This document shows positions 39,892 through 64,000 of a DNA stretch of 64,000 bases, in pieces. Positions within the stretch are counted from its first letter, which is position 1; the number at the start of each line of letters is the position of its first letter. The notes beneath the pieces were generated by a model. That model ran no database searches and was not told the DNA's origin. It worked only from the letters and a program-made list of their open reading frames with translations. Origin of the DNA: Deltaproteobacteria bacterium. Lineage in GTDB: Bacteria; Chloroflexota; Dehalococcoidia; Dehalococcoidales; BS750m-G39. Location of the stretch: NCBI GenBank assembly GCA_030603275.1, contig JAUVYB010000006.1, positions 5,205 to 69,204 on the forward strand, written 5' to 3'. The translations under genes and the position numbers were made by a program.

Positions 39892-41190
39892 ATGGGGTGG
39901 CTCATTGTTTTTGGCATTATACTTGCCATTTGGTTCATTACTTGGCTGAGCAACAGGCTATCTAACCTACGGGGGATGGCAAAGAAGTATGCTGAATTGA
40001 AGCCGAAATTTGACAGCTTGAATACTTATAAAGACGAATTGGAACTCACAAACAAAGAATTAAAGCACTGGGCTGATAAATATCATGAGATGAAATCGGT
40101 GTTCGATAGGTTAGATAAATACAAGGGTGAATTAGAGTTAAAAGAGTCCCGACTAAGAAATAAAGAAGAAACATTTGAGACATTAGTCAAAGAAAAAACA
40201 GCTGGTTTTCCTTGGTTAACTTGGGCTTATGATAATTACTATGAACTTGAGGACCTAAAGATGGAGGCCTATCTTGAAAGCAAACCCCATCCAGCAATAA
40301 AAGCCGCCGAACACCATAAACAGATTTCTAAAGAGCGTCGTGAAGCTGAAAAAGCAGCAAGGTTGGCAAATTACCTCTTGGATTATTGTCGTTATCTAGC
40401 TCCTTGGTTAGATGAATACATAGGCTTGGAAGCTGATGAGTTAGACGAAATTATAAAAGAGATACACTCAGCGTGGGAGAAGAAAGAGAAGGAGTTTGAT
40501 GAGGAAGTAAAACGACATTTTGGGCCTAAATATGAAGGACTTACGCCGACCGAGAAATTGCAGAAAAAACTGGATTGGTATTGGGGGAAACCTAATAAAT
40601 CCAATTGGCAAATTGGAAGGGATTACGAGAGATATAGCGGGTATTTATATGAGATAAAAGGCTGGAATGTCAACTATCACGGTAAGAAGGGATTTGAAGA
40701 CTTGGGGCGGGACTTGGTTTGCAAAAAAGCTAATGCTGTAGAGATAATCCAGTGTAAGCGCTGGGCGCAAGAGAAAATAATCCATGAAAAGCATATCTAT
40801 TATTTATTTGGCACCACAGTTGAATATTTTATTGAAAACTTTAGAGGCGAGGACTTACAATTAGCCCTATTTCCTAGCCTTGCTCGAAAGAGAAATGTAA
40901 TCCCTAAATTGGTTACTACGATAGATGTTTCCCCAAAAGCTGAACAAGTAGCGAAAGTGCTTGGGGTGGTAATAGAAAAAGTACCGTCGGAGCCCTATCC
41001 CTCGGTAAAATGCAATGTAGCTAGAAGGACGGGGGAGAAAATCTTTCACCTTCCTTTCGACCAGCAGTATGATACCATATTAATAGAGGAAGAAAGACTA
41101 GAATGCTATGTTGAAACCGTTGCGGAGGCAGAGGCCCTTGGATTTCGGCACGCATACCGCTGGAAGGGCGAAGTTGCGCAAATCCCATAA
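39892..41190 (+). CDS. membrane-tethered coiled-coil protein with Mrr-like PD-(D/E)xK restriction-endonuclease domain
   Basis: 432 aa. The N-terminal TM segment is WLIVFGIILAIWFITWL. It has a long K/E-rich coiled coil with an internal duplication (KFDSLNTYKDELELTNKEL / VFDRLDKYKGELELKESRL). The nuclease core reads GWNVNYHGKKGFEDLGRDLVCKK..AVEIIQCKRW. The gene is strongly AT-rich against its flanks. Confidence 0.75.
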   Translation: MGWLIVFGIILAIWFITWLSNRLSNLRGMAKKYAELKPKFDSLNTYKDELELTNKELKHWADKYHEMKSVFDRLDKYKGELELKESRLRNKEETFETLVKEKTAGFPWLTWAYDNYYELEDLKMEAYLESKPHPAIKAAEHHKQISKERREAEKAARLANYLLDYCRYLAPWLDEYIGLEADELDEIIKEIHSAWEKKEKEFDEEVKRHFGPKYEGLTPTEKLQKKLDWYWGKPNKSNWQIGRDYERYSGYLYEIKGWNVNYHGKKGFEDLGRDLVCKKANAVEIIQCKRWAQEKIIHEKHIYYLFGTTVEYFIENFRGEDLQLALFPSLARKRNVIPKLVTTIDVSPKAEQVAKVLGVVIEKVPSEPYPSVKCNVARRTGEKIFHLPFDQQYDTILIEEERLECYVETVAEAEALGFRHAYRWKGEVAQIP

Positions 41191-51486: not shown

Positions 51487-52278
51487 ATGTCTCAAGACGG
51501 AGGATTAGCCGTGAGCCAAATTGATGCCGCCGCCAATATGATTGCCCAATCAAAAAAGCTGGTGGTCTTTACAGGCGCCGGCCTGAGCACCGAATCAGGC
51601 ATCTCCGATTTCCGCAGTCCGGGAGGAGTCTGGAGCCGATTCGACCCCAGCGAATTTACCTTCCAGAAGTTTCTATCCAGCGAGGAGAGCCGGGAAAAAT
51701 ACTGGGAATTTTCCACCTCATCCTGGGGTGAGATGGCGGCGGCTCAACCTAACCCCGGTCACCATGCTATCGCCGAACTGGACAGTATAGGCAAGCTGGA
51801 CTGCGTTATTACCCAGAATATCGACGGCTTGCACCAGAGGTCCGGAATCCCGGAGGAAAAGGTAATTGAACTGCACGGGACAGCCCGGTGGGTCAGCTGC
51901 CTGGAGTGCGGGCAAAGATACCCCAGGGAGCAAATCCAGGGCAGGCTTAGCTCGGGAATAAAGGTGCCGCGGTGCGATAGCTGCGGCGGAATCATGAAAC
52001 CAGCTACCATTTCCTTCGGTCAAGCCATGCCGGAACGGGAAACCCGCCAAGCCGAAAACAGGGCAGCCGCCTGTGACCTGTTCTTGGTCGCCGGCTCTTC
52101 GCTGGTAGTCTATCCCGCCGCCCAGATGCCACTAATCGCCAAGGAGAGCGGCGCCAGATTGATTATCGTTAACCTGACGCCAACCCCCCACGACCCCCAC
52201 GCTGATATTGTCATCCACGACCAGACCGGCCCGGCGCTGTCTCAAATCATTGACCGGGTAAAGGCATATTTAAGTTGA
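51487..52278 (+). CDS. cobB: NAD-dependent protein deacylase (sirtuin)
   Basis: 263 aa; motifs GAGLSTESGISDFRSPGG, QNIDGLH and ELHG, with a Zn ribbon CLECG...CDSCGG. Confidence 0.93.
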   Translation: MSQDGGLAVSQIDAAANMIAQSKKLVVFTGAGLSTESGISDFRSPGGVWSRFDPSEFTFQKFLSSEESREKYWEFSTSSWGEMAAAQPNPGHHAIAELDSIGKLDCVITQNIDGLHQRSGIPEEKVIELHGTARWVSCLECGQRYPREQIQGRLSSGIKVPRCDSCGGIMKPATISFGQAMPERETRQAENRAAACDLFLVAGSSLVVYPAAQMPLIAKESGARLIIVNLTPTPHDPHADIVIHDQTGPALSQIIDRVKAYLS

Positions 52279-53495
52279 GACTTAAACTGGTTGTCCTCAC
52301 TCTACTGTCACTCTGTTTACTCGGCGGGAGCTGCGCTACCTCCCCCGATTTTGATAGCTCTCTAAAATCGATAGTCAAACCCTATCAATTCAGTATTGCA
52401 CAGTGGGAACTCAAAGCCCTACCGGACGAAGTGAATGACTATGTTTTCAACAAGGGAGAAAGGGTTGAAGATAAAGTCGGTGTGGTCGTTGAGTATTTTA
52501 ACCTGATTAAGCAGATAAAAAGCCTTGAAGCAGAAATTGCCGCCGTTAACGCCGGTTATAAAGCGGGTGATTTAGCCTCACTTGAATCTGAACTGAACAG
52601 ACTACAACAGCAAAAAGCGGCTCTAACCGACGGAGTGGAAAAAATAATAGCCGAGCAGATAAAAGAGGTGCTGGCGGAGCAGGGTATCTATCATCCTCTA
52701 GATAATTACATCAAATGGAAGGTCGGCTTCCCACCGCTGATTTTTAGACTGGAGCCACCGCCGCACCTGCTGGTGGTTTCCCCCAGGGACAGGATAGAAA
52801 GCCTGAGAGAGATTCACCTGCAACAAGACCTGAGCGTGGCGGCAATGGAGAGCATTGAGGAGCAGGCAGATAAATTGGGTGTCTCCTCACTGGTGGTAGG
52901 GCTGGGAGGGCTGGGGACATATCCCGCCTTCGTCATTGACGACGCCAGCCTGCAGTTTACCATCAACGCCGCCACCGAGGAATGGCTGCACAACTACCTG
53001 ACCTTTAAGCCGCTGGGATTTCTATATTTGCTTGATTTAACCGGCATATCCCGCAATTATGAGATTGCCACCATAAACGAAACCGTAGTTGGCATAGCCA
53101 GTAAGGAGATCGGTGCCATCGTCTATCAAAAATTCTATTCTGACTATGAAAATAGTCCCCAGGCACCGGTAGAGGAGCCAGAGGTCGACTTCAACCAGGA
53201 AATGAGAGAAATAAGACAGATAGTCGACACATACCTAGCTCAGGGGGAAATCAGCCAGGCCGAAGAATACATGGAACAGAAACGGCAATATTTGGCCTCC
53301 ATGGGCTACTATATCAGAAAGCTGAACCAGGCCTATTTTGCCTTTCACGGGACTTACGCTGATAGCCCAACCTCCATAAGTCCCATCGGCGCTGAGCTAA
53401 AACAGCTGAGAGAGCAAAGCGCCTCACTAAAGGCTTTTCTGGACACCGCAGCCGCTATGACCAGCCGGCAAGACTTAAGTTTAAGCATCCAGTGA
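52275..53495 (+). CDS. secreted hypothetical protein (signal peptide, possible lipoprotein)
   Basis: 406 aa, TTG start overlapping the cobB stop. The N-terminus is MRLKLVVLTLLSLCLLGGSCATS. I recognise no family. Confidence 0.55.
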   Translation: MRLKLVVLTLLSLCLLGGSCATSPDFDSSLKSIVKPYQFSIAQWELKALPDEVNDYVFNKGERVEDKVGVVVEYFNLIKQIKSLEAEIAAVNAGYKAGDLASLESELNRLQQQKAALTDGVEKIIAEQIKEVLAEQGIYHPLDNYIKWKVGFPPLIFRLEPPPHLLVVSPRDRIESLREIHLQQDLSVAAMESIEEQADKLGVSSLVVGLGGLGTYPAFVIDDASLQFTINAATEEWLHNYLTFKPLGFLYLLDLTGISRNYEIATINETVVGIASKEIGAIVYQKFYSDYENSPQAPVEEPEVDFNQEMREIRQIVDTYLAQGEISQAEEYMEQKRQYLASMGYYIRKLNQAYFAFHGTYADSPTSISPIGAELKQLREQSASLKAFLDTAAAMTSRQDLSLSIQ

Positions 53496-53501
53496 TAGTG
53501 G

Positions 53502-54215
53502 TCAATAGGCTCTCATTCTGGCTACCACAAAGAGAATAATTAGCCCCAGGAAAACCGCGCCGCCAACTACTAGCCACAGAACCGGCACACCACCAGAATC
53601 GGCTGAAGGTGATGATGGCGGCAATAATTGTGCTGGCTCGGTTGACCCAGGGGGCAGGGGGGTAGCCTCGGGCGAAGAATGGGCTACCGGGGGTGGGGCG
53701 ACGGCTTGAGAGGCTTCAGTGGCTACCATCACCACACCTTCCACCCACGTTGCCTCTATTTCACCAGCGGTAATATCGCTAAGCACCCCGTTGGATGGGT
53801 TTACCAGGCTGCTGTCGCCAGCCGCACCGATGACATGAAAGTGCATCTCGGCCAGATATCCCGAGCCATTGGCCCCGGTTAATCCCGGGACATTTTGAAT
53901 AACCCGGTATGTCCCCGGGCTAAGCTCATTATAGAGGTCGACCGGTATTTCAGTTGAGCCTATAAACCCCGAGGTAATAGTATCCAGCCGTAGAACCGTG
54001 GCATCAAAGGTGACATCATAGTTACAGGCGTCAAAGTCAGTCACCTCGCTGATACTGATACTGGCGGTAAAGCCGCTATCGGGGTCTACCCCGGAAGGGT
54101 TATCAACGCTCACGGTAACACCCGATGTCGCCGCCACCGGTGGCACTGCCCCACCAACCAGAAGCAGTGCCACCACAACAGCTATAATGCTAAACACTCT
54201 TACTATGCTTTTCAT
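53502..54215 (-). CDS. membrane-anchored cohesin-domain protein (cohesin only, no dockerin)
   Basis: 237 aa. Signal peptide, then a cohesin-like module (FTASISISEVTDFDACNYDVTFDATVLRL...YNELSPGTYRVIQNVPGLTGANGSGYLAEMHFHVIG), a P/S-rich linker and a C-terminal TM segment (VPVLWLVVGGAVFLGLIILFVVARMRAY). The start overlaps the upstream gene's stop (TAATG). Confidence 0.8.
   Translation of the reverse strand: MKSIVRVFSIIAVVVALLLVGGAVPPVAATSGVTVSVDNPSGVDPDSGFTASISISEVTDFDACNYDVTFDATVLRLDTITSGFIGSTEIPVDLYNELSPGTYRVIQNVPGLTGANGSGYLAEMHFHVIGAAGDSSLVNPSNGVLSDITAGEIEATWVEGVVMVATEASQAVAPPPVAHSSPEATPLPPGSTEPAQLLPPSSPSADSGGVPVLWLVVGGAVFLGLIILFVVARMRAY
53715..54125 (-). repeat. cohesin module copy (anchor protein)
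   Basis: Paralogous at protein and DNA level to 54389-54808, 56300-56714 and 58495-58904. Confidence 0.8.
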
Positions 54216-54808
54216 TAATCCAGACCAGCTATTATCCTCTCTACCTTGGTAATATCCAGGGCGTTGACATTGCCATCACCATTGGCATCAGCGCCGGGTG
54301 TCTCAGCATCCAGTCCAGCGATTATCCTTTCCACCTTGGTGATATCCAGGGCGTTAACGGCACCATCGTCATTGGCATCTCCCGGAATTACCGAGGTGAC
54401 ATTTACCGTATCCCCCACCCAGGTGGCGGTTATCTCCACAGCGAGATTATTGGAGAGCATGCCGTTGGAGAGAGTTATAGTGCTGCTGTCACCGCCAGAG
54501 CCGACGACATGGAAGTGCAATACCGCCAGATAGCCGGAGCCAGTTGCCCCGCTCAAGCCAGGAACATTCTGAATAATACGGTATGTCCCCGGGCTTAGCT
54601 CATTATAGAGGTCAACTGGGATTGTCATTGAGCCTATCAACCCCGAGGTTACATCATCCAGCCCTAGAACCGTGGCATCAAAGGCGACATCGTAGTTACA
54701 GGCGTCAAAGTTAGTCACCTCGCTGATATTGACATTGACGGTAAAGTCGCTGTCCTCAAGCACCTCATCATCCGGGGCATCAATGGTCACCGTCACTGAC
54801 ACAGTCTC
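54215..54808 (-). repeat. cohesin-dockerin cassette copy (197 codons)
   Basis: The C-terminal 197 aa of the 615-aa protein. It is homologous to the C-terminal 194 and 193 aa of the next two proteins. Confidence 0.85.
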
Positions 54809-56062
54809 CGCATAAAGACGGACTATCTTCACTGCAGAGCTCATGCCAAAGTCCCAACTATCGTTAAGGAGTATGTACAATACTCCATCACCCCCGACAA
54901 CCGGCCAGTTGGTTGAATAAGAGTGATCCGCTTCGCCCAAATCAAGAGACAGCGTCCACAACTCGGTGCCATCGGAGTTTATGGCTGAAACCGAAGCCCC
55001 GTGGCTCACGTAAATGGTGCCATCGGCACCGACGACCGGAGCGTCACCCGCCGCTGAGCCCAGGCTGTATTCCCAGATTGTACTACCGCTGGCGTCAAGC
55101 GCTGTAAGCTTTTTGTCGCTGTAAGAGCCAGTCTTAACATAGAGGGTGGTTCCGTCAGCAGCTACGGCTCCGGTAGAATAGCTACCATCGAAGAATCGAG
55201 ACCACTGCGACACCCCGCTAGCGTTAAGAGCGGTCATTGTGCCGTCCTGACTGCGATAGACTATGTTGCCGTTGCCAAGGATGTTTGGCCCGTATATTGG
55301 GCGGTCGGGGAGGGCAGTCGTCCACTTAACCGACCCGTCTGAGTTAAGGGCAATGGCACCATGGGCATCATTACCGACATAGATAGTGCCGTCGTCACCG
55401 ATAGCCGGTGAGCAAAAGATTATTCCGCCGGCTGAATATGTCCAGTTTACGCTACCGTCGACAGCCACCGAGCGCAGGTTGTCATCGTAGGCTCCAAAGT
55501 AAACGTTGCCGCTCTGGTCAACAGCCGGTGATGACATATAGGCGCTATCACTCGTCGAGACCGTCCAGACCTCAGCTCCATCGGTCTGGCTTAGCTTGGC
55601 CATCCCGTAATCAGCGGGCGGCCAGTGGGTGCCGAAGTTTATGTAGAGGTAATCTTCGATAACCGCGGCTGTCCCGGAAACACCCTGCATTACCGGTCGG
55701 GTCCACGACCATTTCAGCGTCCCATCGGTGTTAAAGGCATGCAGCCCCTCTTCCCCATTTCTAAGTCCGAGGTAGAGTGTTCCATCCGAGCCTATGGAAA
55801 GCGGCATCTCGGCACCGGAGCCGGGAGTGGTAGCCGTCCAATCAACCTCGGGAAGGGTGGTGGGACCAGTATAAGCACTGCGGTTGGTATGGTGCGGGTC
55901 CAGGCCATAAACGGGATAGGGACTGGAAGCCAGTCCGCGGCTTATCTCGCTACCCGACTCACCCGATGCAACAGGGGGCGCCTCAACCCCCACTGCTACC
56001 GCCGGTATTGAAACCAGCAAAAGCAGCGATATAACCAGCACCGGAAATAAGATTTTACCCAT
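54215..56062 (-). CDS. secreted PQQ-like beta-propeller protein with C-terminal cohesin + double dockerin
   Basis: 615 aa. Signal peptide, then repeated DG(T/S)(L/I)Y(V/L)G...A(F/L)N.DG(T/S).KW blades, then the cohesin module, then GDANDDGAVNALDITKVERIIAGLD and DANGDGNVNALDITKVERIIAGLD (two EF-hand-like dockerin repeats). Confidence 0.8.
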   Translation of the reverse strand: MGKILFPVLVISLLLLVSIPAVAVGVEAPPVASGESGSEISRGLASSPYPVYGLDPHHTNRSAYTGPTTLPEVDWTATTPGSGAEMPLSIGSDGTLYLGLRNGEEGLHAFNTDGTLKWSWTRPVMQGVSGTAAVIEDYLYINFGTHWPPADYGMAKLSQTDGAEVWTVSTSDSAYMSSPAVDQSGNVYFGAYDDNLRSVAVDGSVNWTYSAGGIIFCSPAIGDDGTIYVGNDAHGAIALNSDGSVKWTTALPDRPIYGPNILGNGNIVYRSQDGTMTALNASGVSQWSRFFDGSYSTGAVAADGTTLYVKTGSYSDKKLTALDASGSTIWEYSLGSAAGDAPVVGADGTIYVSHGASVSAINSDGTELWTLSLDLGEADHSYSTNWPVVGGDGVLYILLNDSWDFGMSSAVKIVRLYAETVSVTVTIDAPDDEVLEDSDFTVNVNISEVTNFDACNYDVAFDATVLGLDDVTSGLIGSMTIPVDLYNELSPGTYRIIQNVPGLSGATGSGYLAVLHFHVVGSGGDSSTITLSNGMLSNNLAVEITATWVGDTVNVTSVIPGDANDDGAVNALDITKVERIIAGLDAETPGADANGDGNVNALDITKVERIIAGLD

Positions 56063-56129
56063 TTTCCACCTCCTGTTTTGCCATTTTTTAAGAATACGCT
56101 GGCATTTAGTCCATTTTCACCTCCAATAG

Positions 56130-56714
56130 TTAACCCAGCCCGACAATTATCAGCTCTATCTTGGTAATATCCATAGCGTTGACATTGCCGTCACCATTAG
56201 CGTCAGAGCCGGGGGTCTCAACGTCCAGTCCAACGATAACCCGCTCCACCTTGGTTATATCCAGGGCATTGACCGCACCATCGCCATTGCCGTCACCAGG
56301 CGTCACTGAGGTAATATCCACGGAATCACCAGCCCAGGTCGCTGTTATCTCCCCAGCCTGGTTATCCGATAGCACGCCGTTTGACAGAGATATAGCGCTG
56401 CTATCGCCTTCAGAGCCGATGACATGGAAGTGCAGTACCGCCAGATAGCCGGAGCCGCTTACACCAGCCACACCGGGGACATTCTGGATAACCCGGTATG
56501 TCCCTGAGCTTAGCTCGTTATACATATCAACCGGTACCGCGGTGGAGTCTATCAGCCCTGAGGCTACGTCATCCAAGCGTAACACCGAGGCATCAAAGGT
56601 AATATCATAGTTACAGGAATCAAAGTCGGTGACCTCGCTGATATTGATACTGGCGGTAAAATCGCTATCGGGGGAGACATCATCGGGGGCGTCAATGCTG
56701 ACCGTCACCAGTTC
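56130..56714 (-). repeat. cohesin-dockerin cassette copy (194 codons)
   Basis: See the cassette alignment in findings. Confidence 0.85.
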
Positions 56715-58232
56715 CGGCGGCGCCAATTCGGTGGTAAAGCTCCAAGAGTAAGCCGAGGCCATTGGATTGCCGGCGGCATCGGTTATCGCCGTACTTAAGC
56801 TGGCGGTATAGAAGGTGTCGTAGGCCAAGTCGGCAGACGGGGTAAAGGTAGCGGTATAGGTACCACTATTATAGGAAACGCTACCCGATACACCAGCTAG
56901 GGTAAAGCTGCCGGTGGTTATGGTTGCCGCATCCATCGCCTCGCTGAAGGTAGCCGCTACCACTGTCTCCAAAGACACATCAGTGGCATCTGCTGCCGGT
57001 GAGGTGCTGGCTACGGTGGGTGGGGTGGTATCGGACTCGCCCACCTTTACCAGCCAGACATCACTACCGCCAGCACCATAAGAGCCTGTATCGCCGGTAA
57101 CAATATAGCCGCCATCTGAGGTAACCGCTACCGAGAGGCCATCTTCGTAATTGGAGCCGCCGAAGAATGCATTCCACTCCTCATTCCCATTGGCGTTGGT
57201 CTTTATCAGCCACATTTTTCCATATCCAATACCATAAGAGTAGGTAGTGCCGGTAACAATATAGCCGCCGTCCGGGGTCTGGGCTACCGAGTGGCCGGCA
57301 TCACTGGCAGACTCCCCGCCGAAGGTATTACTCCAGACCTCGTTGCCGCTGGCATCGGTCTTTACCAAGTAGACCTGACCAGTGCCGCCGAAGGAATAGC
57401 TATTGCCGGCAATAATATAGCCGCCATCCGAGGTCTGGACTACTGACTGTCCATAGTCACCGCTGACTCCGCCGAAGATTTCGTTCCACTCTTCATCCCC
57501 ACTGGCATCAGTCTTAATCAGCCAGGCGTTAGCGGAACCATCACCGTAAGAGAAAGTGTAGCCAGCAATAACATAGCCGCCGTCCGAGGTCTGGGCTACT
57601 GACCGTCCATAGTCGTCATTTGAGGTGCCAAAGGTCCGGCTCCACTCCTGAATACCGTAGGCATCGGTCTTTATCAACCAGGCATCATAAGACCCAGCAC
57701 CATGGCTCGAGGTATCGCCAACGATGACATAGCCGCCATCCGAGGTCTGGGCTACCGAGTAGGCAGTGTTGGCTCCCGTACCGCCGAATATCTGGTCCCA
57801 CTCTTCATTGCCGCTAGCATCGGTCTTTATCAACCAGACATCACAATAGCCAGCAAAAGAATAGGTGTAGCCAGCAATAATATAGCCGCCATCCGAGGTC
57901 TGAGCTACCGACTTGCCATAGTCCTGCTCGGAGCCGCCGAAGGTCTGACTCCATTCCTCATTACCGCTAGCATCGGTCTTTATCAACCAGACATCATTAA
58001 GCCCAGCGCCATAAGAGTATGTCTGGCCGGCAATGATATAGCCGCCGTCAGAGGTCTGGGCTACCGAGTTGCCCTGGTCGTGACCCGAGCCGCCAAAGGT
58101 CTGGCTCCATTCCTCCACGGGGGCGCTGCGGGAATCGGGCGGAGTGGTAATCTGCTCACCAGCGGCCGGCAGGGGGAACATGAGCAGAAGAGCGCAGACA
58201 AAGGCTACTAGAAGTATTTTTTGTACTTTCAT
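56130..58232 (-). CDS. secreted 7-blade SBBP-like beta-propeller / Ig-like protein with C-terminal cohesin + double dockerin
   Basis: 700 aa. Signal peptide, then seven ~52-aa repeats (W..TFGG....G.SVAQTSDGGYI.AG.T.S.G.G..D.WLIKTDASGNEEW). A Big_5/SbsA-like Ig region follows (PPTVASTSPAADATDVSLETVVAATFSEAMDAATIT), then the cohesin, then GDGNGDGAVNALDITKVERVIVGLD and DANGDGNVNAMDITKIELIIVGLG. Confidence 0.8.
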   Translation of the reverse strand: MKVQKILLVAFVCALLLMFPLPAAGEQITTPPDSRSAPVEEWSQTFGGSGHDQGNSVAQTSDGGYIIAGQTYSYGAGLNDVWLIKTDASGNEEWSQTFGGSEQDYGKSVAQTSDGGYIIAGYTYSFAGYCDVWLIKTDASGNEEWDQIFGGTGANTAYSVAQTSDGGYVIVGDTSSHGAGSYDAWLIKTDAYGIQEWSRTFGTSNDDYGRSVAQTSDGGYVIAGYTFSYGDGSANAWLIKTDASGDEEWNEIFGGVSGDYGQSVVQTSDGGYIIAGNSYSFGGTGQVYLVKTDASGNEVWSNTFGGESASDAGHSVAQTPDGGYIVTGTTYSYGIGYGKMWLIKTNANGNEEWNAFFGGSNYEDGLSVAVTSDGGYIVTGDTGSYGAGGSDVWLVKVGESDTTPPTVASTSPAADATDVSLETVVAATFSEAMDAATITTGSFTLAGVSGSVSYNSGTYTATFTPSADLAYDTFYTASLSTAITDAAGNPMASAYSWSFTTELAPPELVTVSIDAPDDVSPDSDFTASINISEVTDFDSCNYDITFDASVLRLDDVASGLIDSTAVPVDMYNELSSGTYRVIQNVPGVAGVSGSGYLAVLHFHVIGSEGDSSAISLSNGVLSDNQAGEITATWAGDSVDITSVTPGDGNGDGAVNALDITKVERVIVGLDVETPGSDANGDGNVNAMDITKIELIIVGLG
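57039..58112 (-). repeat. seven tandem ~156-bp coding repeats (propeller blades)
   Basis: DGGY(I/V) occurs 7 times at ~52-aa spacing (aa 41-398 of the 700-aa protein). Confidence 0.8.
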
Positions 58233-58251
58233 AATACCCTCCTAAAACCCC

Positions 58252-58275
58252 CACCCCCCTCTTACGAGGGGGGTG
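58252..58275. terminator. GC-rich hairpin between protease gene and propeller gene (possible terminator / family B-like)
   Basis: CACCCCCCTC (58252-58261), loop TTAC, GAGGGGGGTG (58266-58275). On the minus strand it is followed by GGGGTTTT. The stronger T-run (T7) is on the plus strand, where no gene ends, so the role is uncertain. Confidence 0.35.
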
Positions 58276-58322
58276 ATTTTTTTACTCAGGCTCGTGTTAA
58301 GGTTTGTCTTTAACCAGAATGA

Positions 58323-58904
58323 TTAATCCAGGCCGACGATTATCCTCTCCACCTTGGTGATATCCAGAGCGTTGACATTGCCATCGCCATTGGCATCAGC
58401 GCCAGCTGTCTCAGCGTCCAGGCCGACGATTATCCTCTCCACCTTGGTTATATCGAGGGCATTAACCATGCCATCACCATTGGCATCCCCAGCCAGCGCC
58501 GAAGTGATACTCACCGAATCGCCAACCCAGGTCGCCTCTATCTCTGCCGCCTGAATATCTGATAGCGTGCCGTTAGCGAGACTTATGGCACTACTATCGC
58601 CTTCAGAGCCAATAACATGGAAGTGCAATACCGCCAGATAGCCGGAGCCGCTCACCCCGGCTACACCAGGAACATTCTGAATAACCCGGTATGTCCCTGA
58701 GCTTAGCTCGTTATACATATCAACAGGTATAGTGGTTGAACCTATCAGCCCTGAGGCTATGTCATCCAGCCGCAGTACCAAAGGATCAAAGATAATATCG
58801 TAGTTACAGGAGTCAAAATCGGTGATCTGGCTGATATTAACATTGGCGGTGAAGTCGCTATCAGGTTCAGCTGTAGCCGGGGCATCAACGCTAACCGCAA
58901 CCGC
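58323..58904 (-). repeat. cohesin-dockerin cassette copy (193 codons)
   Basis: See the cassette alignment in findings. Confidence 0.85.
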
Positions 58905-61900
58905 CCCTACCGCTACCACGGTAAAGCCGTCAGTTAGCGTTCCCGTTCCGGCCGAAGTGGTAACTGAAACATCTCTCAGCCCCAAGGTAGCAGTAGTATC
59001 GATAGAGATGTTAGCCGTTATCTCCGCAGCACTGACCACGGTAAAGGAATTGACTGTTATCCCGTCACCAAAGCTTACTGCCGTGGCTCCGGTAAGATTA
59101 GTCCCGCCAATGGTTACCTCCAGAGTCGCCCCCTGCTCCCCGGAATCAGGGCTGACTGAGGTTACCGTCGGTAGCTCAAGAGCACTAACATGCAGGGCCA
59201 CCGGCACGGTTACCGAAGCCTCATCGGGGTCATTACTGGCGATGATTATCTCGGCATTGTAAGTGCCCACACTGAGTCCGGTGGTGTCTATGGTCACCGT
59301 TATGGGGTCTGAGCTAGACGCCGCCACAGCACCCGAAATGGGGCTTTCACTCAGCCAGGAGCAATCTATGCTGCTTACGGTAAAGATGGCTGTTTCCTCA
59401 TCGAGCAGAGTCGCTTCCGAATCATAGACCTTTGCCGTGATAGTGTACTCACCCAGCACGGCTTCCGCCGGCAGGCTATAGGTGAAGTTGCAACTGGCCA
59501 CCTCTCCCGCCTCCACGGTTATCGCCGAGGTGTCATAAAACACCAGCGTACCTTCCGGGTCCTCCACATTGATAGTAACGACGCCGTCGGTAAGGGCGGC
59601 ATCACCGCCATTGCCCACATCCACATAGATGGTCACGTCTTCCTCAGGCAGGTAGCTGGAACTGTCGGTAAATAGCGTCACTATACTTACCTCGGGAGTG
59701 CCGATTATGGCGTCAGTGGTCCCGTAATAGAAGATGACGTCCTGGGATTCACCGGGTGAGAGCGTGCCCAGGTTCCAGTACATGCCTACGGCGGTATCCG
59801 AGGTTATTGACTGCCCGATGGTCGCGGTATAGTCAAAGGGGATGTAATAGATATCCGGCCAGTAAACAAACTGCACCTTATAAGGCTTATTGCCAGTGCT
59901 AAATGTGCAGTTGGAGGTTAGTGTTGGACTGACCAGGCTATCGGTGGCCTGCCAGTAGTCAAACACTGGGTTGTTATACTCCTGTTCGGTGGTGACGTTG
60001 CCCACTCCCGGAACGATAAACGGAGCACCATCGTTGTATGCCAACATGGTATCAAGCATGAAGCGTATCTTTACCTCGTGGCTGGCGGCATCGTTGTTGG
60101 TAATAGTAGCCTGGTATTTAGTGGTGTCTTGCTGTAAGGTCAACCTCAGGGAGACACCCACATCCGTCGGTAGGGACCACTGCGTGGTAATGCTGTTGCC
60201 ATCAACGGCAGGCGCCTGTGTTACATAGCTATCCATGGCAGCATCTTGATCGTAATCGCTACCATCTAACTGAACCGTCATATAGGAGGTGCCAGCGTAG
60301 GGATAGCCGTAAAGCAACAGCTTTTCATCGGCGGTGGCTTCGGTATATCTACCAATGTAACTCAAGTCAGCAACCGCAATACTCATGTCATATTCGGTAT
60401 TACTCAAAGTCAGGTCAGGATTTTTGGAAATGACCTCTTCTTTAACCGTTGCCAGACTGCCCTCAATGCTTATCGGCACCGAGCCGCCGCTTGCCTCCTG
60501 GTCGCTGATGTCATAGGTAAGCTCACTGGTGCCATCGTTGCCAATGGTCAGGATATAATCCTCTGTGGTATCAGGAGCTAACGTTACTTCATAGCTGGTC
60601 GGTGATACACTGATGTCAGGCACAGATGGAGATGTAAAGAGGATGGCATAGAGGAATTCATCCCAGTGGGTATCGTTGGTAAACAAGACGTCAGTCTCGT
60701 AGTCAGAGTAGTAATTGGCCGAAGTTTCCGGGTAGTAAATGGACAGCCCGTGAGAGTTGCCCACTGATGCCGTATGGCCTTCGGCAATAACAGCGTTAGT
60801 TATCGCCGTCATCACGTCACTGGCGGCATCTCTGACCGCCTGACTTATAGTGGCATCCTGATTTACCAGCTGGGCAAAGTGATAGAGATCGATATAGTAG
60901 TAATAGTAGTATTCCTGGGCTGAGCTTCTGGCCGTACTGATGGCAGTCCAATCACCGGGGGCGTTGGTCATGGCTACAGCAAAGCTGTCAACGGCGGTTG
61001 CCAGCGCTTCCATATAATCTAAGTCCACCGCCGACTGAGTTATATCCCAGCTCGAACTATAGGAGATTACGTAGTCGTTAACTATCTGGGTACCCAGCTC
61101 TGCTGGTGTCATCGTTGGGTCGGCGGTCAGGGCGGTGAGAGTGGCGGCATAATCCCAACCGTCGCCGGGTTCGGTTTCCTCCGAGCCCACGGTTATGTCA
61201 ACCAGAGGACGGCTGGCACTGCCCATCACCTGATAAGCCACCTCGACCATTTGCATCAGGCAGGCATCAAAGCCAACGATATCCAGCGTTTTGCCGGTGC
61301 TAAGGTTGGCCGCATTAAGGGCGCTGCGGAGTTCGGTCATGGTCAGTTCGTCACCAGACTCGTCATCAACGCAGATGGACTTTACCGCCTCACCATCGCT
61401 ATCTCTCCCCCTCCAGCCGCTGCCGTGGTTCCAAAGCACCAGGGCATAATGCTGGGCGGGATAGTTTGCCACCGCCCACTCGATAAAACTCGTCAGTGTC
61501 GCCGGGTCGCCCATATTCACCTCTCCCAGGTCTTCGATCACCGGGGAGTTAATAATCAACTGGTCGGTATCCTGAGTGACGTATAACCGCTTGGTGCCGG
61601 TCCAGTTCCCGTTGGTGGTGTCATCGGCATAGTCGCGCTCAGCGCGGTCCATCTGAACCACGATTGCGACGTCATCGGTAGAGCCGGCAACTTCCATCTC
61701 GTTCATATCATCTATGCCGGCACTCTCCAGGTTATTATCGGCATCAAGGTAAACCATAAACAGCCAGTCCACTTCAAACTCGGAGGCGGTGGCATCTACC
61801 GCCGCCTGGATATCGAGCAGGCCATAGCCGTCTATATTATTGTTGGCGTCCACCGAACTAGCTGTTGACTGGAGCAGGTTCCTGACATCGGCCGGATGCC

Positions 61901-63701
61901 CCTTTAGCTCAGGATTGGCTTCAAGCAGTAGCGCCGCGGCTCCGGCGGCAACGGGACAAGCCATGCTTGTCCCGTGCATCACGTAGTAATCCGCCGGACC
62001 CGAGCCATCCAGATTCAAGCCATCGTTGTCAATAAAGTAAGCACTGGCACCGCCAGGCCAGGCATAGACATCCTGGTCACGCACCGATATTATGGCGCTG
62101 CCCGGAGCCACGATATTCGGCTTCTGCGGTGCGCCACTATCTACCCTCGGTCCGCGGCTGCTGAAGGAGGCCATGGTACCTACCGTCTGATCGGGGTTGA
62201 TGAAGTGATAGCTAAGCCCGTCATAGGCAGTCCAGTTCTTCCTGCTGGTGTAAGCACCAACGGCTATAGCCTTTTCGGCATCGGCCGGTGAACAAAGGGT
62301 ATAAAACGGGTCGGCGTTATGAAACTCAACCGAAGCCCCGCTACTGGCAATGCCCTCAAAGTAGATATGGTAGAACTGGTCACTATCCGAGTTGTTAGTA
62401 ACTTTTAGATAGTAGGTCGGGCTTCCTGCTGGCAAGTAGAAATACCAGCCAGCTTCAGGACCATAGCCAGAAAGTTCATGCTCGGTACCTTTCCAGCTCT
62501 CTTCCTGGGCACCTGCCCAGATGTCACCCATAGCCGTCTGGGTGGAATCGTAATACTCCAGAACCAGGTCTCTGCTATTTGCCAGTCCGTCAAACCAAAC
62601 CAGGTTAAAGCCAAGCCCGGCATTACCGCCGGTGGAGCCAGTAACATCGACCTGGATAAATCCAGTGCTGCTATAGGCATCAACCGTGCCTGAGTAATGC
62701 TCACCGTCACCGGCTTCATTACCCGCCGAGATAAAGACTACCGCCCCCTGACTAAAAGCGTAGTCTACCGCCTGGGAGGTTTGCCTGGTACCATCATGGT
62801 AATCCCCCCAACCACCATAACTCATGGTTATAATATCGGCGTCATAGGTATCCACCGCCGCCTTAATGGCGTTGGTCATGGCATCAAGCGAAGCGTTACC
62901 AGTAGTATCATTGCCAATCTTGAGAAAGATAAGGTCAGCATCCGGTGCCATGCCTTTATATTCGCTAGCGGCTCCGGAGGACTGTGTTCCCCGCCCCAGA
63001 GCCGAACCGGCGACATGGGTACCATGCCCGGTAACGCTATTGGCAATGGTGTCATCCAGCACCGGCCAGCTTGAGTAGTCTTTACTGGCTACCGGCGCCG
63101 GGATATCAGGGTGAGAAGTGTCCAGGCCAGAATCCAGCACGGCTATCCTGACACCGCTACCATCATAGCCTGAGCCCCAGACATCGTCGGCGTTTACCTC
63201 AATTGCCGCCTGGTCATTCTGAGGCTCTAATAGCTGCTCGGCAGTATCCAGTTGGGCAACATAGTCCCTGCCCGCCAGCACGCCAAGCTTATCTACAGGC
63301 ATATCAGCCACGATAAAGCCGGTGGGGAATTCCCCTACCGGCGGTATCCAGGAATCTGGATAAGGGATAATACCCATAGACTCCAGTTCATCTAATTGCT
63401 TTACCGTCGGCTCCTGGGCAAGGTGGATAAATACCCGCTGTGTCTCCAGGTCTTTCGTATTCATGCCCCTAGCCTGCATCATGCTCAACTCGCCGGCTGT
63501 TGGCTGAACCTGCTGGCAGCGCAGCTTAGCCTCTACCTGCAAAGAAAGCAAGGCGCTGACCTTAGCCTCGGGCTCAGCCGCCGGAAATGAAAGCGCCTGG
63601 TGACTGTTTCCAGATGAAACAGCGTGAACACCAGGCATAGTACCAAGGGAAAGTGACAATAAAAGAAAAATAGTGCCAAAAATCTTGAGGGGGGTTTTCA
63701 T
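58323..63701 (-). CDS. giant secreted double protease: I9-like propeptide + subtilisin S8 + clostripain-like C11 + Ig-like/IPT modules + cohesin + double dockerin
   Basis: 1792 aa with a signal peptide. S8 triad contexts are AVLDSGLD (D190), GHGTHVAG (H226) and HGTSMACP (S579), with a large insertion between His and Ser. C11 contexts are WLFMVYLDADNNLE, VLWNHGSGW (H759) and GFDACLM (C814). An IPT-like region reads VTSVSPDSGEQGATLEVTIGGTNLTG. The same C-terminal cohesin + 2 dockerin repeats follow. Confidence 0.85.
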   Translation of the reverse strand: MKTPLKIFGTIFLLLSLSLGTMPGVHAVSSGNSHQALSFPAAEPEAKVSALLSLQVEAKLRCQQVQPTAGELSMMQARGMNTKDLETQRVFIHLAQEPTVKQLDELESMGIIPYPDSWIPPVGEFPTGFIVADMPVDKLGVLAGRDYVAQLDTAEQLLEPQNDQAAIEVNADDVWGSGYDGSGVRIAVLDSGLDTSHPDIPAPVASKDYSSWPVLDDTIANSVTGHGTHVAGSALGRGTQSSGAASEYKGMAPDADLIFLKIGNDTTGNASLDAMTNAIKAAVDTYDADIITMSYGGWGDYHDGTRQTSQAVDYAFSQGAVVFISAGNEAGDGEHYSGTVDAYSSTGFIQVDVTGSTGGNAGLGFNLVWFDGLANSRDLVLEYYDSTQTAMGDIWAGAQEESWKGTEHELSGYGPEAGWYFYLPAGSPTYYLKVTNNSDSDQFYHIYFEGIASSGASVEFHNADPFYTLCSPADAEKAIAVGAYTSRKNWTAYDGLSYHFINPDQTVGTMASFSSRGPRVDSGAPQKPNIVAPGSAIISVRDQDVYAWPGGASAYFIDNDGLNLDGSGPADYYVMHGTSMACPVAAGAAALLLEANPELKGHPADVRNLLQSTASSVDANNNIDGYGLLDIQAAVDATASEFEVDWLFMVYLDADNNLESAGIDDMNEMEVAGSTDDVAIVVQMDRAERDYADDTTNGNWTGTKRLYVTQDTDQLIINSPVIEDLGEVNMGDPATLTSFIEWAVANYPAQHYALVLWNHGSGWRGRDSDGEAVKSICVDDESGDELTMTELRSALNAANLSTGKTLDIVGFDACLMQMVEVAYQVMGSASRPLVDITVGSEETEPGDGWDYAATLTALTADPTMTPAELGTQIVNDYVISYSSSWDITQSAVDLDYMEALATAVDSFAVAMTNAPGDWTAISTARSSAQEYYYYYYIDLYHFAQLVNQDATISQAVRDAASDVMTAITNAVIAEGHTASVGNSHGLSIYYPETSANYYSDYETDVLFTNDTHWDEFLYAILFTSPSVPDISVSPTSYEVTLAPDTTEDYILTIGNDGTSELTYDISDQEASGGSVPISIEGSLATVKEEVISKNPDLTLSNTEYDMSIAVADLSYIGRYTEATADEKLLLYGYPYAGTSYMTVQLDGSDYDQDAAMDSYVTQAPAVDGNSITTQWSLPTDVGVSLRLTLQQDTTKYQATITNNDAASHEVKIRFMLDTMLAYNDGAPFIVPGVGNVTTEQEYNNPVFDYWQATDSLVSPTLTSNCTFSTGNKPYKVQFVYWPDIYYIPFDYTATIGQSITSDTAVGMYWNLGTLSPGESQDVIFYYGTTDAIIGTPEVSIVTLFTDSSSYLPEEDVTIYVDVGNGGDAALTDGVVTINVEDPEGTLVFYDTSAITVEAGEVASCNFTYSLPAEAVLGEYTITAKVYDSEATLLDEETAIFTVSSIDCSWLSESPISGAVAASSSDPITVTIDTTGLSVGTYNAEIIIASNDPDEASVTVPVALHVSALELPTVTSVSPDSGEQGATLEVTIGGTNLTGATAVSFGDGITVNSFTVVSAAEITANISIDTTATLGLRDVSVTTSAGTGTLTDGFTVVAVGAVAVSVDAPATAEPDSDFTANVNISQITDFDSCNYDIIFDPLVLRLDDIASGLIGSTTIPVDMYNELSSGTYRVIQNVPGVAGVSGSGYLAVLHFHVIGSEGDSSAISLANGTLSDIQAAEIEATWVGDSVSITSALAGDANGDGMVNALDITKVERIIVGLDAETAGADANGDGNVNALDITKVERIIVGLD

Positions 63702-63737
63702 AGTTACCTCCTTAAATTTTGTGGACAGTTGAGCACC

Positions 63738-63766
63738 AGTATAGCATAAAAAATGCCCACTGTCAA
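63738..63766 (-). promoter_or_regulatory. sigma70-type promoter of the giant protease gene / cohesin-dockerin cluster
   Basis: On the minus strand: TTGACA (63766-63761), 17 nt, TATACT (63743-63738). The 36-nt leader carries AAGGAGGT (63713-63706), 4 nt before the ATG at 63701. Confidence 0.65.
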
Positions 63767-63835: not shown

Positions 63836-64000
63836 TTAGGCTAGAGGCTCTAGCGCCTGTTCGGCGGTGTCCAGTTGAGTTATGTAATCTTTATTCATCA
63901 GCTCGTCAAGCTTGCCTATGGGCATATCGGCCACCAGGAATCCGGCGGATGGCCCTTCGGCGGAAGGTATCCACGAGTCAGGATAAGGGGTAATGCCCAT
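63836..64000 (-). CDS. 3' end of a short paralog of the protease propeptide region (N-terminus beyond window)
   Basis: My translation is ...MGITPYPDSWIPSAEGPSAGFLVADMPIGKLDELMNKDYITQLDTAEQALEPLA*. It aligns to aa 109-160 of the 1792-aa protein (MGIIPYPDSWIPPVGEFPTGFIVADMPVDKLGVLAGRDYVAQLDTAEQLLEP). It stops at 63838-63836, where the catalytic domain would begin. Confidence 0.6.
   Translation of the reverse strand: MGITPYPDSWIPSAEGPSAGFLVADMPIGKLDELMNKDYITQLDTAEQALEPLA

What the first reader, a model, noticed from the sequence alone, without database searches (positions are those of the whole stretch)
53502..63766. Self-contained non-cellulosomal cohesin-dockerin system: one membrane-anchored cohesin plus three secreted cargo proteins that each carry cohesin AND dockerin
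Four consecutive minus-strand genes sit behind one strong promoter (TTGACA-17-TATACT, 63766-63738) and share a ~140-aa cohesin-like module.

- Cargo proteins: the three upstream proteins (1792, 700 and 615 aa) each have a signal peptide. Each ends in the identical architecture of cohesin followed by two dockerin repeats with EF-hand-like loops (DANGDGNVNALDITKVERII(V/A)GLD).
- Anchor: the last, small protein (237 aa) has a signal peptide, a cohesin, a P/S linker and a C-terminal TM anchor, but no dockerin. Its ATG overlaps the stop of the preceding cargo gene (TAATG at 54213-54217), which suggests translational coupling.
- Contrast with cellulosomes: classical cellulosome logic puts cohesins on scaffoldins and dockerins on enzymes. 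Here every cargo carries both modules, so the cargos could daisy-chain head-to-tail into polymers that terminate on the membrane-anchored cohesin. Alternatively, they could be auto-inhibited in cis.
- Cargo type: two beta-propellers and an S8+C11 double protease, with no glycoside hydrolases. This points to a cell-surface proteolytic or binding complex rather than a cellulosome.

I am not aware of such a system being described for this kind of genome. The function is inference.
Basis: partly seen in the sequence, partly recalled or inferred. Interest (0 to 1): 0.85.

Follow-up and report, generated by a model that had tools for sequence, protein, structure and literature searches.

The report
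Membrane-anchored cohesin-dockerin protease display locus
An uncultured Dehalococcoidales bacterium carries the tail end of a conserved gene cluster that most likely uses cellulosome-type cohesin and dockerin "plug-and-socket" modules to hang a giant double protease and two propeller proteins on its cell membrane; it is a previously undescribed variant of a known assembly principle, not a new principle.

Summary
**Observation: confirmed.** Four minus-strand genes (53502-63701) sit behind a conserved promoter.
- All four carry a real cohesin, by Pfam above cut-off and by an AlphaFold2 model (pLDDT 94.6) that matches solved cohesins.
- The three large proteins end in cohesin followed directly by a canonical two-repeat dockerin.
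- The 237-aa protein is signal peptide + cohesin + Pro/Ser linker + C-terminal membrane helix.

**Interpretation: partly supported.**
- It is a non-cellulosomal cohesin-dockerin system with a protease as its main cargo.
- It is not self-contained. In the closest relatives (Dehalococcoidales MAGs, 89-91% identical protease) these genes are the 3' end of a larger locus.
- That locus also encodes a membrane-anchored scaffoldin with 3-4 cohesins, a 220-aa cohesin-dockerin-only protein, dockerin-only cargos, and two further conserved small genes.
- One of those small genes is cut by the window edge. Another (P0262) appears to lie on the same contig, outside the window.
- The C-terminal cohesin-dockerin tandem is a widespread tag: 66 of the 150 best cluster representatives have it.

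**Mechanism: inferred only.** Daisy-chaining is plausible and has precedents (R. bromii Amy4, A. fulgidus ORF2375/2376), but I could not test binding.

**Novelty.** I found no description of this system in Dehalococcoidia. Verdict: new variant of a known kind, moderate interest.

The parts
63738..63766 (-). Sigma-70-type promoter: TTGACA, 17 nt, TGn-TATACT
   Evidence: 11/12 match, best in the region. TTGACA is invariant in six related loci and TGCTATACT is identical in five, with a variable spacer.
63707..63731 (-). Conserved leader (CTCAACTGTCCAC core, 63731-63721) and RBS AAGGAGG (63713-63707)
   Evidence: Invariant columns in alignment A4. The function of the leader motif is unknown.
58323..63701 (-). 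1792-aa secreted double protease: signal peptide, prodomain-like N-terminus, S8 subtilase, C11 clostripain-like domain, Ig-like domains, cohesin, dockerin
   Evidence: Pfam S8 161.9 bits, C11 202.7 bits, Dockerin_1 39.9 bits. Catalytic motifs are intact. Orthologues at 76-91% identity occur in many Dehalococcoidales loci.
58497..58910 (-). Cohesin module of the protease (residues 1598-1735)
   Evidence: Pfam Cohesin 40.2 bits on the isolated module. AF2 pLDDT 94.6. Foldseek TM 0.78-0.85 (normalised to the target) to solved cohesins, including 6kgf_C and 2xdh.
58326..58496 (-). Dockerin of the protease: two 24-residue repeats, 23/24 identical
   Evidence: Pfam Dockerin_1. phmmer hits to solved type-I dockerins 1daq, 2ccl and 1ohz. 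Helices at 151-161 and 181-191 in the model. Repeat symmetry is kept despite 7 synonymous codon differences.
58252..58275 (-). Conserved GC-rich hairpin between the protease gene and the next gene, flanked by an A-run and a T-run, 6 nt before the next RBS
   Evidence: The stem is invariant and the loop variable in window, L016 and L014. RNA fold -35 kcal/mol, z = -3.5. Likely a partial terminator or mRNA stabiliser (inference).
56130..58232 (-). 700-aa secreted SBBP/delta-60-type repeat (propeller-like) protein + Big_5 + cohesin (56304-56714) + dockerin (56133-56303)
   Evidence: Pfam Big_5 85 bits, Cohesin 44.5, Dockerin_1 33.9. NCBIfam SBBP/delta-60 hits are below cut-off. At least six ~52-aa repeats.
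54215..56062 (-). 615-aa secreted PQQ_2/BamB-like beta-propeller + cohesin (54389-54805) + dockerin (54218-54388)
   Evidence: Pfam PQQ_2 84.6 bits, Cohesin 37.9, Dockerin_1 39.9. Orthologue at 90% identity in L003.
53502..54215 (-). 237-aa anchor: signal peptide, cohesin (53721-54128), Pro/Ser/Thr/Ala linker (53601-53720), TM helix + RMRAY tail (53505-53600). Its ATG overlaps the stop of the previous gene.
   Evidence: Pfam Cohesin 40.7 bits. Hydropathy. TAATG overlap. Orthologues with the same tail are in L003 and L017. The tail motif is shared with scaffoldins.
63836..64000 (-). 3' end of a conserved ~240-aa gene cut by the window edge. It is a lipoprotein-like protein whose C-terminal ~100 aa are a paralogue of the protease's N-terminal prodomain-like region.
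   Evidence: sequence. Near-identical to the C-terminus of L017 9135-9866 and L014 11517-12242, which directly precede the protease gene there.

Best explanation
The four genes are the downstream end of a larger, conserved cell-surface protein-display locus of uncultured Dehalococcoidales.

Proposed mechanism:
1. All products are exported by Sec signal peptides.
2. The 237-aa protein stays in the membrane through its C-terminal helix, with its basic tail inside. It holds one cohesin outside the cell on a flexible Pro/Ser stalk.
3. The calcium-binding dockerins at the C-termini of the S8+C11 protease and the two propeller proteins plug into membrane-anchored cohesins. These are the single-cohesin anchor and, very probably, a 3-4-cohesin scaffoldin encoded just beyond the window edge.
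4. Each cargo also carries a cohesin of the same family directly before its dockerin. A docked cargo therefore offers a new socket, so further dockerin proteins can be added in chains or branches.
5. The result is a protease-centred complex on the surface of a cell that probably feeds on peptides and other polymers.

Shown: module identities, folds, topology signals, operon signals, conservation and synteny.
Inferred: that these particular cohesins bind these particular dockerins, the stoichiometry, and the physiological role.
For: Modules:
- Cohesin and dockerin pass the Pfam cut-offs.
- The AF2 model has pLDDT 94.6 and matches cohesins taken from solved cohesin-dockerin complexes and the A. 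fulgidus non-cellulosomal cohesin.
- Dockerin repeats have the canonical DxNxDGxxNxxD loops. Their symmetry is preserved by selection: 23/24 and 22/24 identical residues with 7 synonymous codon changes.

Anchor:
- Only the cohesin-only protein has a C-terminal TM segment and a basic tail.
- The same tail ends the 3-4-cohesin scaffoldins of L008, L014, L016 and L017.

Synteny and conservation:
- A cohesin-plus-tail protein directly follows dockerin genes in eight or more loci, next to the same backbone genes.
- Dockerin-only cargos sit beside multi-cohesin scaffoldins in relatives, which shows trans docking logic in the lineage.
- Cargo-borne cohesins are as conserved as anchor/scaffoldin cohesins, with nearly the same consensus on strands 3, 5, 6 and 8, the strands that form the dockerin-binding face in known cohesins.
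- Proteins made only of signal peptide + cohesin + dockerin exist (P0017, P0060 and others). They have no function other than linking.

Precedents with experimental binding:
- R. bromii Amy4 cohesin binds its own dockerin (PMC4611034).
- A. fulgidus ORF2376 cohesin binds the ORF2375 dockerin (PMC9705933).
Against: - No binding or complex prediction could be run, so the wiring is unknown.
- In the window's sub-lineage the cohesins fall into distinct orthologous classes: scaffoldin, terminal anchor, three cargo classes and mini. Dockerin repeat 2 also differs between classes. Specificities may therefore differ, and cargo cohesins may not accept cargo dockerins.
- The cohesin-to-dockerin linker is only about 6 residues and the tandem is modelled as fairly rigid (pTM 0.74). 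This could also fit a structural rather than receptor role for the cargo cohesin.
- The scaffoldin is inferred for this genome from relatives and from contig-length identity. It was not seen.
- There are no expression or proteomic data.
- Signal peptides and the TM helix were judged by hydropathy only.
Confidence: 0.6

Rival explanations
1. Rigid 'CohDoc' dyad. The cargo-borne cohesin is mainly a structural buttress for the adjacent dockerin, as the X-module is in type-II XDoc dyads, or it binds its own dockerin in cis as a clasp or auto-inhibitor. Under this reading cargos do not chain, and each simply docks once on a membrane-anchored cohesin.
For: The linker between the last cohesin strand and the first Ca loop is about 6 residues. 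pLDDT stays at or above 87 across the junction and pTM is 0.74 for the two-domain model. The immediate cohesin-dockerin juxtaposition is the dominant arrangement: 66 of the 150 best representatives. An intramolecular dockerin clasp is known in R. flavefaciens ScaA (PMC3821032, title only).
Against: Cargo cohesins are as conserved as anchor/scaffoldin cohesins on the putative binding strands. Natural variants separate the two modules with an Ig domain (P0039, P0038) or carry two cohesins before one dockerin (L005, L006, L009). Mini cohesin-dockerin proteins would be pointless as mere buttressed plugs. A 6-residue linker makes it sterically doubtful that the dockerin can reach the cohesin's binding face (inference; no coordinates were available).
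Confidence: 0.17
2. Adhesion system. The cohesins and dockerins, together with the propellers, mainly mediate attachment of the cell to other cells (syntrophic partners) or to particles, not enzyme display.
For: Two of the three cargos are non-catalytic propeller or repeat proteins. Related loci hold beta-helix (NosD-like) and Ig-rich proteins. A cell-cell role has been proposed for ANME cohesin/dockerin proteins (PMC9012536).
Against: The constant cargo across loci is the S8+C11 protease with intact catalytic residues. The propeller genes are an insertion found only in the window and L003, and partly in L014 and L016. Both partners of each cohesin-dockerin pair are encoded in one locus of one genome.
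Confidence: 0.12
3. Self-contained four-gene system. The single-cohesin anchor plus three cohesin+dockerin cargos form the whole machine, and head-to-tail polymerisation replaces a scaffoldin.
For: One strong, conserved promoter precedes the four genes, and anchor translation is coupled to the last cargo. No other cohesin or dockerin is in the 64-kb window.
Against: The gene immediately upstream is a conserved locus member cut by the window edge. Close relatives have a scaffoldin, a mini cohesin-dockerin protein and dockerin-only cargo upstream. P0262, another locus member, maps to a contig of the same length as the window's and lies outside the window.
Confidence: 0.08

Closest known systems
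Archaeoglobus fulgidus ORF2375/ORF2376 non-cellulosomal cohesin-dockerin pair (Bayer 1999; Voronov-Goldman 2011; cited in PMC9705933 and PMC4611034)
   Same: Non-cellulolytic organism. Adjacent genes, one with a cohesin only and one with a dockerin (and, from my memory of the original papers, also a cohesin). Binding has been verified experimentally there. Its cohesin structure, 2xdh, is the third-best structural match to the window's cohesin (TM 0.80 normalised to the target).
   Different: It is archaeal, has only two genes, no TM-anchored multi-cohesin scaffoldin and no conserved protease cargo. Sequence identity is only about 20%.
Ruminococcus bromii amylosome, enzyme Amy4 (PMC4611034)
   Same: A catalytic protein carries both a cohesin and a C-terminal dockerin. 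Its cohesin binds its own dockerin, so multimerisation is predicted. A single-cohesin surface anchor (Sca2) also binds peptidase dockerins.
   Different: Only one enzyme has this dual architecture, not a systematic C-terminal tag. The anchor is sortase-linked to a Gram-positive wall rather than held by a TM helix. The cargo is GH13 amylases.
Clostridial cellulosomes, including the single-cohesin OrfX proteins of mesophilic clostridia (PMC7157769)
   Same: Type-I-like cohesins and two-repeat dockerins. Gene clusters contain a scaffoldin plus dockerin-bearing proteins and a small single-cohesin protein of unclear role.
   Different: Here there are no glycoside hydrolases, no CBM on the scaffoldins of relatives and no SLH or sortase anchoring. 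The cargo is proteases, propellers and beta-helix proteins.
Inferred cellulosome-like complexes of uncultured anaerobes: ANME archaea (PMC9012536) and Ca. Stygibacter, Cloacimonadota (PMC8542988)
   Same: Genome-inferred cohesin/dockerin systems in non-cellulolytic, uncultured anaerobes. They include dockerin-bearing S8 and cysteine peptidases and cohesin+dockerin proteins.
   Different: Different phyla and different anchors (S-layer domains; T9SS C-terminal domain). No cohesin-dockerin tandem tag or TM-tail family is reported. None concerns Dehalococcoidia.

Membership tests
Cohesin (Pfam PF00963) | Profile HMM match above the curated gathering score | tested here: met
   40.7, 37.9 and 44.5 bits for the 237-, 615- and 700-aa proteins, and 40.2 bits for the isolated module of the 1792-aa protein. 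The cut-off is 24.1.
Cohesin (Pfam PF00963) | Nine-stranded beta-sandwich (jelly-roll) fold | tested here: met
   The AF2 model has pLDDT 94.6 and about nine strands. In Foldseek all 50 listed PDB hits are cohesins, with TM 0.78-0.85 normalised to the target for the closest type-I and non-cellulosomal ones.
Cohesin (Pfam PF00963) | Binds a cognate dockerin | not testable with these tools
   No complex prediction or wet-lab assay was available.
Type-I dockerin (Pfam PF00404) | Profile HMM match above the gathering score | tested here: met
   39.9, 33.9 and 39.9 bits against a cut-off of 22.9. phmmer hits to solved dockerins 1daq, 2ccl and 1ohz.
Type-I dockerin (Pfam PF00404) | Two duplicated ~22-24-residue segments, each an EF-hand-like Ca loop (D-x-N-x-D-G-x-x-N-x-x-D) followed by a helix | tested here: met
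   Repeat sequences are shown. The model has helices at 151-161 and 181-191.
Type-I dockerin (Pfam PF00404) | Ca2+-dependent folding and binding | not testable with these tools
   Requires ITC or native PAGE with and without EDTA.
Cellulosome | Dockerin-bearing glycoside hydrolases as cargo | tested here: not met
   No GH domain is in the four proteins, nor in the dockerin proteins of related loci, nor in the Pfam lists of the 120 best homologues.
Cellulosome | Non-catalytic scaffoldin with multiple cohesins | tested here: inconclusive
   Absent from the window. Present in relatives L008, L014, L016 and L017 with 3-4 cohesins, and likely beyond the window edge.
Cellulosome | Carbohydrate-binding module on the scaffoldin; SLH or sortase anchoring | tested here: not met
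   The L014 scaffoldin has Big_5, fn3 and CARDB but no CBM. Anchoring is by a C-terminal TM helix.
Self-binding cohesin+dockerin proteins (Amy4 type) | Cohesin and dockerin in one polypeptide | tested here: met
   All three cargos.
Self-binding cohesin+dockerin proteins (Amy4 type) | The protein's cohesin recognises its own type of dockerin | not testable with these tools
   Only indirect support: equal conservation of cargo and anchor cohesins.

The most novel reading that the evidence does not exclude
The C-terminal cohesin-dockerin tandem is a self-propagating assembly tag. Cargos, together with 'mini' proteins made only of cohesin + dockerin, polymerise head-to-tail from membrane-anchored cohesins. 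This would build an open-ended, branched protein mesh carrying proteases and binding modules. It would act as a modular exoskeleton or feeding coat for Dehalococcoidales, a group whose cultured members lack a peptidoglycan wall (background knowledge; not tested for this lineage).
Probability: 0.3. Interest if true: 0.75.

Novelty: new variant of a known kind. Interest (0 to 1): 0.55.

Why it matters
- Cohesin-dockerin assembly is understood almost entirely from plant-fibre-degrading Firmicutes. Here the same modules organise a protease-centred surface complex in Dehalococcoidales, an abundant uncultured group of anoxic sediments and groundwater whose way of obtaining food is poorly known.
- The system has two unusual features. 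It uses transmembrane-helix anchoring instead of wall anchoring. It also uses a cohesin-dockerin tandem as a standard C-terminal tag on hundreds of protein families, which in principle allows chain growth without a long scaffoldin.
- It offers a large, sequence-diverse set of possibly orthogonal cohesin-dockerin pairs for synthetic biology.
- It gives a concrete hypothesis for extracellular protein degradation by subsurface Chloroflexota.
- Precomputed Pfam annotation gave no hit for several of these scaffoldins, although a direct Pfam scan detects their cohesins. Domain surveys that rely on such annotation will undercount them.

Tried and rejected
- **Window's own contig.** Exact look-ups of the window's anchor, protease and P0262 returned 'not on record'. 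I therefore could not read the ~10.7 kb outside the window and had to rely on close relatives and on contig-length identity.
- **Papers not held.** Peer et al. 2009 and Pagès et al. 1999 are not in the library. Statements about them come from citing papers or from memory and are marked as such.
- **Concerted evolution.** A first tree and identity statistics suggested one shared specificity per genome: 70% same-genome anchor-cargo identity versus 58% between anchors of different genomes. A larger tree showed stable orthologous cohesin classes in the window's own sub-lineage, so I dropped this as a general claim.
- **Sorting signal.** I asked whether the conserved C-terminal tail is a known sortase/exosortase-type signal. 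NCBIfam gave no hit. The tail is shared by three protein families in the locus, but no processing enzyme was identified.
- **Second anchor family.** I asked whether the 'PHAFYG' tail protein is a diverged cohesin. It is not: there is no HMM match, and the model only weakly resembles CarboxypepD_reg/transthyretin-like sandwiches.
- **Other.** Rfam found no RNA family in the window. I considered an archaeal origin, given the ThyX-like gene, archease and RtcB nearby. I rejected it because of the sigma-70 promoter, the Shine-Dalgarno sites and synteny with Dehalococcoidales MAGs.


Full report
**1. What is in the sequence**

The region holds four consecutive minus-strand ORFs:

| ORF | Length |
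|---|---|
| 58323-63701 | 1792 aa |
| 56130-58232 | 700 aa |
| 54215-56062 | 615 aa |
| 53502-54215 | 237 aa |

It is the best match in the region.
- A strong RBS (AAGGAGG, 63713-63707) follows it.
- The last two genes overlap by one base, in TAATG.
- Hydropathy shows an N-terminal hydrophobic segment in all four products. Only the 237-aa protein has a C-terminal one (residues 207-237, then RMRAY). It is preceded by a 40-residue stretch rich in Pro, Ser, Thr and Ala.

**2. Module identity**

- Pfam finds Cohesin above its cut-off in the 237-, 615- and 700-aa proteins, and Dockerin_1 above cut-off in all three large proteins.
- Cohesin is not listed for the full-length 1792-aa protein. Its isolated C-terminal 195 residues score 40.2 bits for Cohesin and 43.2 for Dockerin_1.
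- The four cohesins are 65-79% identical. Their DNA is 70-78% identical.
- A six-frame search with HMMs built from these modules finds no other copy in the window.
- An AlphaFold2 model of the cohesin-dockerin module, built on a 70-sequence alignment, has pLDDT 94.6 and pTM 0.74. It shows a beta-sandwich followed by two helices.
- All 50 listed Foldseek hits in the PDB are cohesins. The best are type-I cohesins crystallised with dockerins (6kgf, 6kgc, 5nrm) and the non-cellulosomal A. fulgidus cohesin 2xdh, with TM about 0.8 normalised to the target.
- The dockerin aligns with solved type-I dockerins and has two canonical Ca-loop-plus-helix repeats.
- The two repeats are 23/24 identical in the 1792-aa protein and 22/24 in the 615-aa protein, yet 7 of the identical-residue codons differ synonymously. 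Selection is therefore keeping the two faces equivalent, as in dual-binding-mode dockerins.

**3. Cargo**

- The large protein has an S8 subtilase (D190, H226, S579) and a C11 clostripain-like domain (H759, C814), both with intact catalytic motifs.
- The 615-aa protein has a PQQ_2/BamB-like propeller, above the Pfam cut-off.
- The 700-aa protein has at least six SBBP/delta-60-like repeats plus Big_5. The repeat-family matches are below the curated cut-offs.
- No glycoside hydrolase or CBM is present.

**4. Organism and conservation**

- A genome scan with a cohesin-dockerin alignment returned 13 loci, all from Dehalococcoidia, Dehalococcoidales or Chloroflexi MAGs. Two are labelled Deltaproteobacteria.
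- One of those two, L003, is the closest relative and is syntenic with the window, so the label is probably a binning error.
- The housekeeping genes flanking the cluster (leucine biosynthesis, RtcB, a radical-SAM protein, a thymidylate-synthase-like protein, B3_4, Sir2) are shared in order with L002, L003, L010 and L017 at 67-94% identity. The cluster therefore sits at a fixed chromosomal site.
- A cohesin protein ending in the same TM tail lies directly downstream of dockerin-bearing genes in L001, L003, L004, L005, L008, L010, L013 and L017.
- The S8+C11+dockerin protease is the constant cargo: L001, L002, L004, L010, L014, L016 and L017, and about 28 of the best database hits.
- The two propeller genes are an insertion between protease and anchor, seen in the window and L003. 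In L017 and L018 the anchor follows the protease directly.
- The promoter hexamers, the RBS and a leader motif are conserved upstream of the protease gene in five to six loci, with a variable spacer.

**5. The locus is larger than the finding**

- The window ends inside a gene. The ORF at 64000-63836 is the C-terminus of a conserved ~240-aa lipoprotein-like gene that directly precedes the protease in L014, L016 and L017.
- In L016 and L017 (protease 91% and 89% identical to the window's), the order upstream of the protease is:
  1. a beta-helix protein;
  2. an Ig-dockerin protein;
  3. a membrane-anchored scaffoldin with 4 or 3 cohesins and the same TM tail;
  4. in L016, a 220-aa signal-peptide + cohesin + dockerin protein;
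  5. a 230-aa tail protein;
  6. the 240-aa gene.
- L014 and L008 show the same kind of scaffoldin.
- The window's proteins come from an NCBI contig of 74,665 bp. A homologue of the 230-aa tail protein, P0262, is recorded on an NCBI contig of exactly that length. Its N-terminal domain is absent from the window.
- The simplest reading is that the locus continues in the ~10.7 kb outside the window. 'Self-contained' is therefore not supported.

**6. How widespread**

- An exhaustive HMMER search of 1.84 billion cluster representatives gave 3869 hits at E ≤ 0.001 and 286 at E ≤ 1e-30.
- Of the best 150 representatives, 66 carry the full cohesin-dockerin tandem at their very C-terminus. Fifteen of those are 260 aa or shorter, so they have no cargo at all.
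- Thirty-two of the 150 have three or more cohesin stretches.
- The tandem is therefore a standard C-terminal tag in this lineage, attached to many different N-terminal domains: Ig-like, PKD, fn3, beta-helix and peptidases.

**7. Mechanism**

The best-supported reading is trans docking of cargo dockerins onto membrane-anchored cohesins, with the cargo-borne cohesins acting as further sockets.

Support:
- Dockerin-only cargos sit next to multi-cohesin scaffoldins in relatives.
- Cohesin-dockerin-only proteins exist.
- Cargo and anchor/scaffoldin cohesins are equally conserved, with almost the same consensus on strands 3, 5, 6 and 8.
- Binding has been shown experimentally in analogous systems.

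Limits:
- In the window's sub-lineage the cohesins form distinct orthologous classes.
- Dockerin repeat 2 differs between classes: KVERII, KIELII, ATERTL and MVEIII.
- Who binds whom is therefore open.
- The very short cohesin-dockerin linker and the fairly rigid model leave room for an XDoc-like structural role or a cis interaction.
- No tool here could predict complexes or return coordinates.

Transcription: a conserved GC-rich hairpin lies between the protease gene and the next gene. The stem is invariant, the loop variable, and the RNA fold has z = -3.5. This suggests differential expression within the operon.

**8. Comparison with what is known**

- Non-cellulosomal cohesins and dockerins are known across bacteria and archaea (Peer et al. 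2009, as cited in PMC9012536).
- Proteins with both modules that self-associate are known, for example R. bromii Amy4.
- An adjacent cohesin gene and dockerin gene with verified binding are known in A. fulgidus.
- Protease-bearing cellulosome-like complexes have been inferred in Cloacimonadota.
- No paper in the searchable library links Dehalococcoidia with cohesins and dockerins. The four papers that hold both 'Dehalococcoid' and 'dockerin' do so incidentally.
- What is new here: the host lineage; the TM-helix anchoring with a conserved tail shared by three protein families; the systematic cohesin-dockerin tandem tag; and the conserved S8+C11 double protease as core cargo.

**9. Verdict**

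- This is a new variant of a known kind.
- Interest is moderate (0.55).

Noticed in passing
window 63836-64000 (-); L014 11517-12242, L016 9144-9866, L017 9135-9866: A conserved ~240-aa lipoprotein-like gene (LLITAC lipobox-like signal in L017) sits directly upstream of the protease. Its C-terminal ~100 aa are a paralogue of residues ~60-160 of the protease, a prodomain-like region with no Pfam hit. It could be a free-standing inhibitor or chaperone of the S8 domain.
   Followed up: partly
L002 3815-4513, L014 10769-11443, L016 8343-9041, L017 8355-9047; P0262 (probably the window's contig, outside the window): A second family of small membrane-anchored proteins occurs in the locus: signal peptide + ~100-aa 'PHAFYG' beta-sandwich + Pro/Thr-rich repeat stalk + the same TM tail as the cohesin anchors. 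It has 317 homologues and no Pfam domain. The AF2 core has pLDDT above 90, with only weak resemblance to CarboxypepD_reg/transthyretin-like domains. Function unknown.
   Followed up: partly
window 53505-53600 (-) and the C-termini of anchors and scaffoldins in L001-L017: A conserved C-terminal tail, (I)NWP(V/I)LWGVIGG or GGVPVLWLVVGG, then a TM helix, then RR(R/K)AY, is shared by single-cohesin anchors, multi-cohesin scaffoldins and the PHAFYG proteins. It resembles a sorting signal, but no NCBIfam model matches and no sortase-like gene was seen.
   Followed up: partly
window 58252-58275: A 10-bp GC-rich hairpin with an A-run before it and a T-run after it lies 6 nt upstream of the next gene's RBS. 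The stem is invariant and the loop variable in window, L016 and L014. It is probably a partial terminator or mRNA stabiliser inside the operon.
   Followed up: partly
window 63721-63731 (-): A leader motif (C)AACTGTCCAC just downstream of the -10 box is invariant in six loci. It could be an operator or a transcription-start context.
   Followed up: no
window 58323-63701 (-); P0121-P0148: The fusion of an S8 subtilase and a C11 clostripain-like protease in one 1200-2200-aa polypeptide recurs in about 28 of the best hits, nearly all with a dockerin. The S8 domain alone is widespread in Chloroflexota. The S8 domain also has a ~240-residue insertion between the oxyanion-hole Asn (AGNE motif at residue 326) and the catalytic Ser (S579).
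   Followed up: partly
L014 4206-6893, L016 3925-7335: Precomputed Pfam annotation gives no hit ('-') for these 3-4-cohesin scaffoldins. A direct Pfam scan and my HMM both find the cohesins. Domain-table surveys would therefore miss them.
   Followed up: yes
L003 (JABMRW010000044.1) and L009 (JAUWGI010000014.1): These contigs are labelled Deltaproteobacteria. L003 is 87-94% identical to, and syntenic with, the window and Dehalococcoidales MAGs, so it is probably mis-binned. L009 was not checked for synteny.
   Followed up: partly
window 52275-53495 (+): A 406-aa protein with a lipoprotein-like signal peptide and no Pfam hit is convergent with the anchor gene, 6 nt between the stops. It is conserved at the locus boundary in L002, L003, L010 and L017. 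Whether it belongs to the system is unknown.
   Followed up: no
window 39892-41190 (+): A low-GC patch (45% against about 53%) holds a 432-aa ORF with a weak Mrr-type restriction-endonuclease match. It lies just upstream of the aconitase-family small-subunit-like and isopropylmalate-dehydrogenase-like genes and is possibly an insertion.
   Followed up: no
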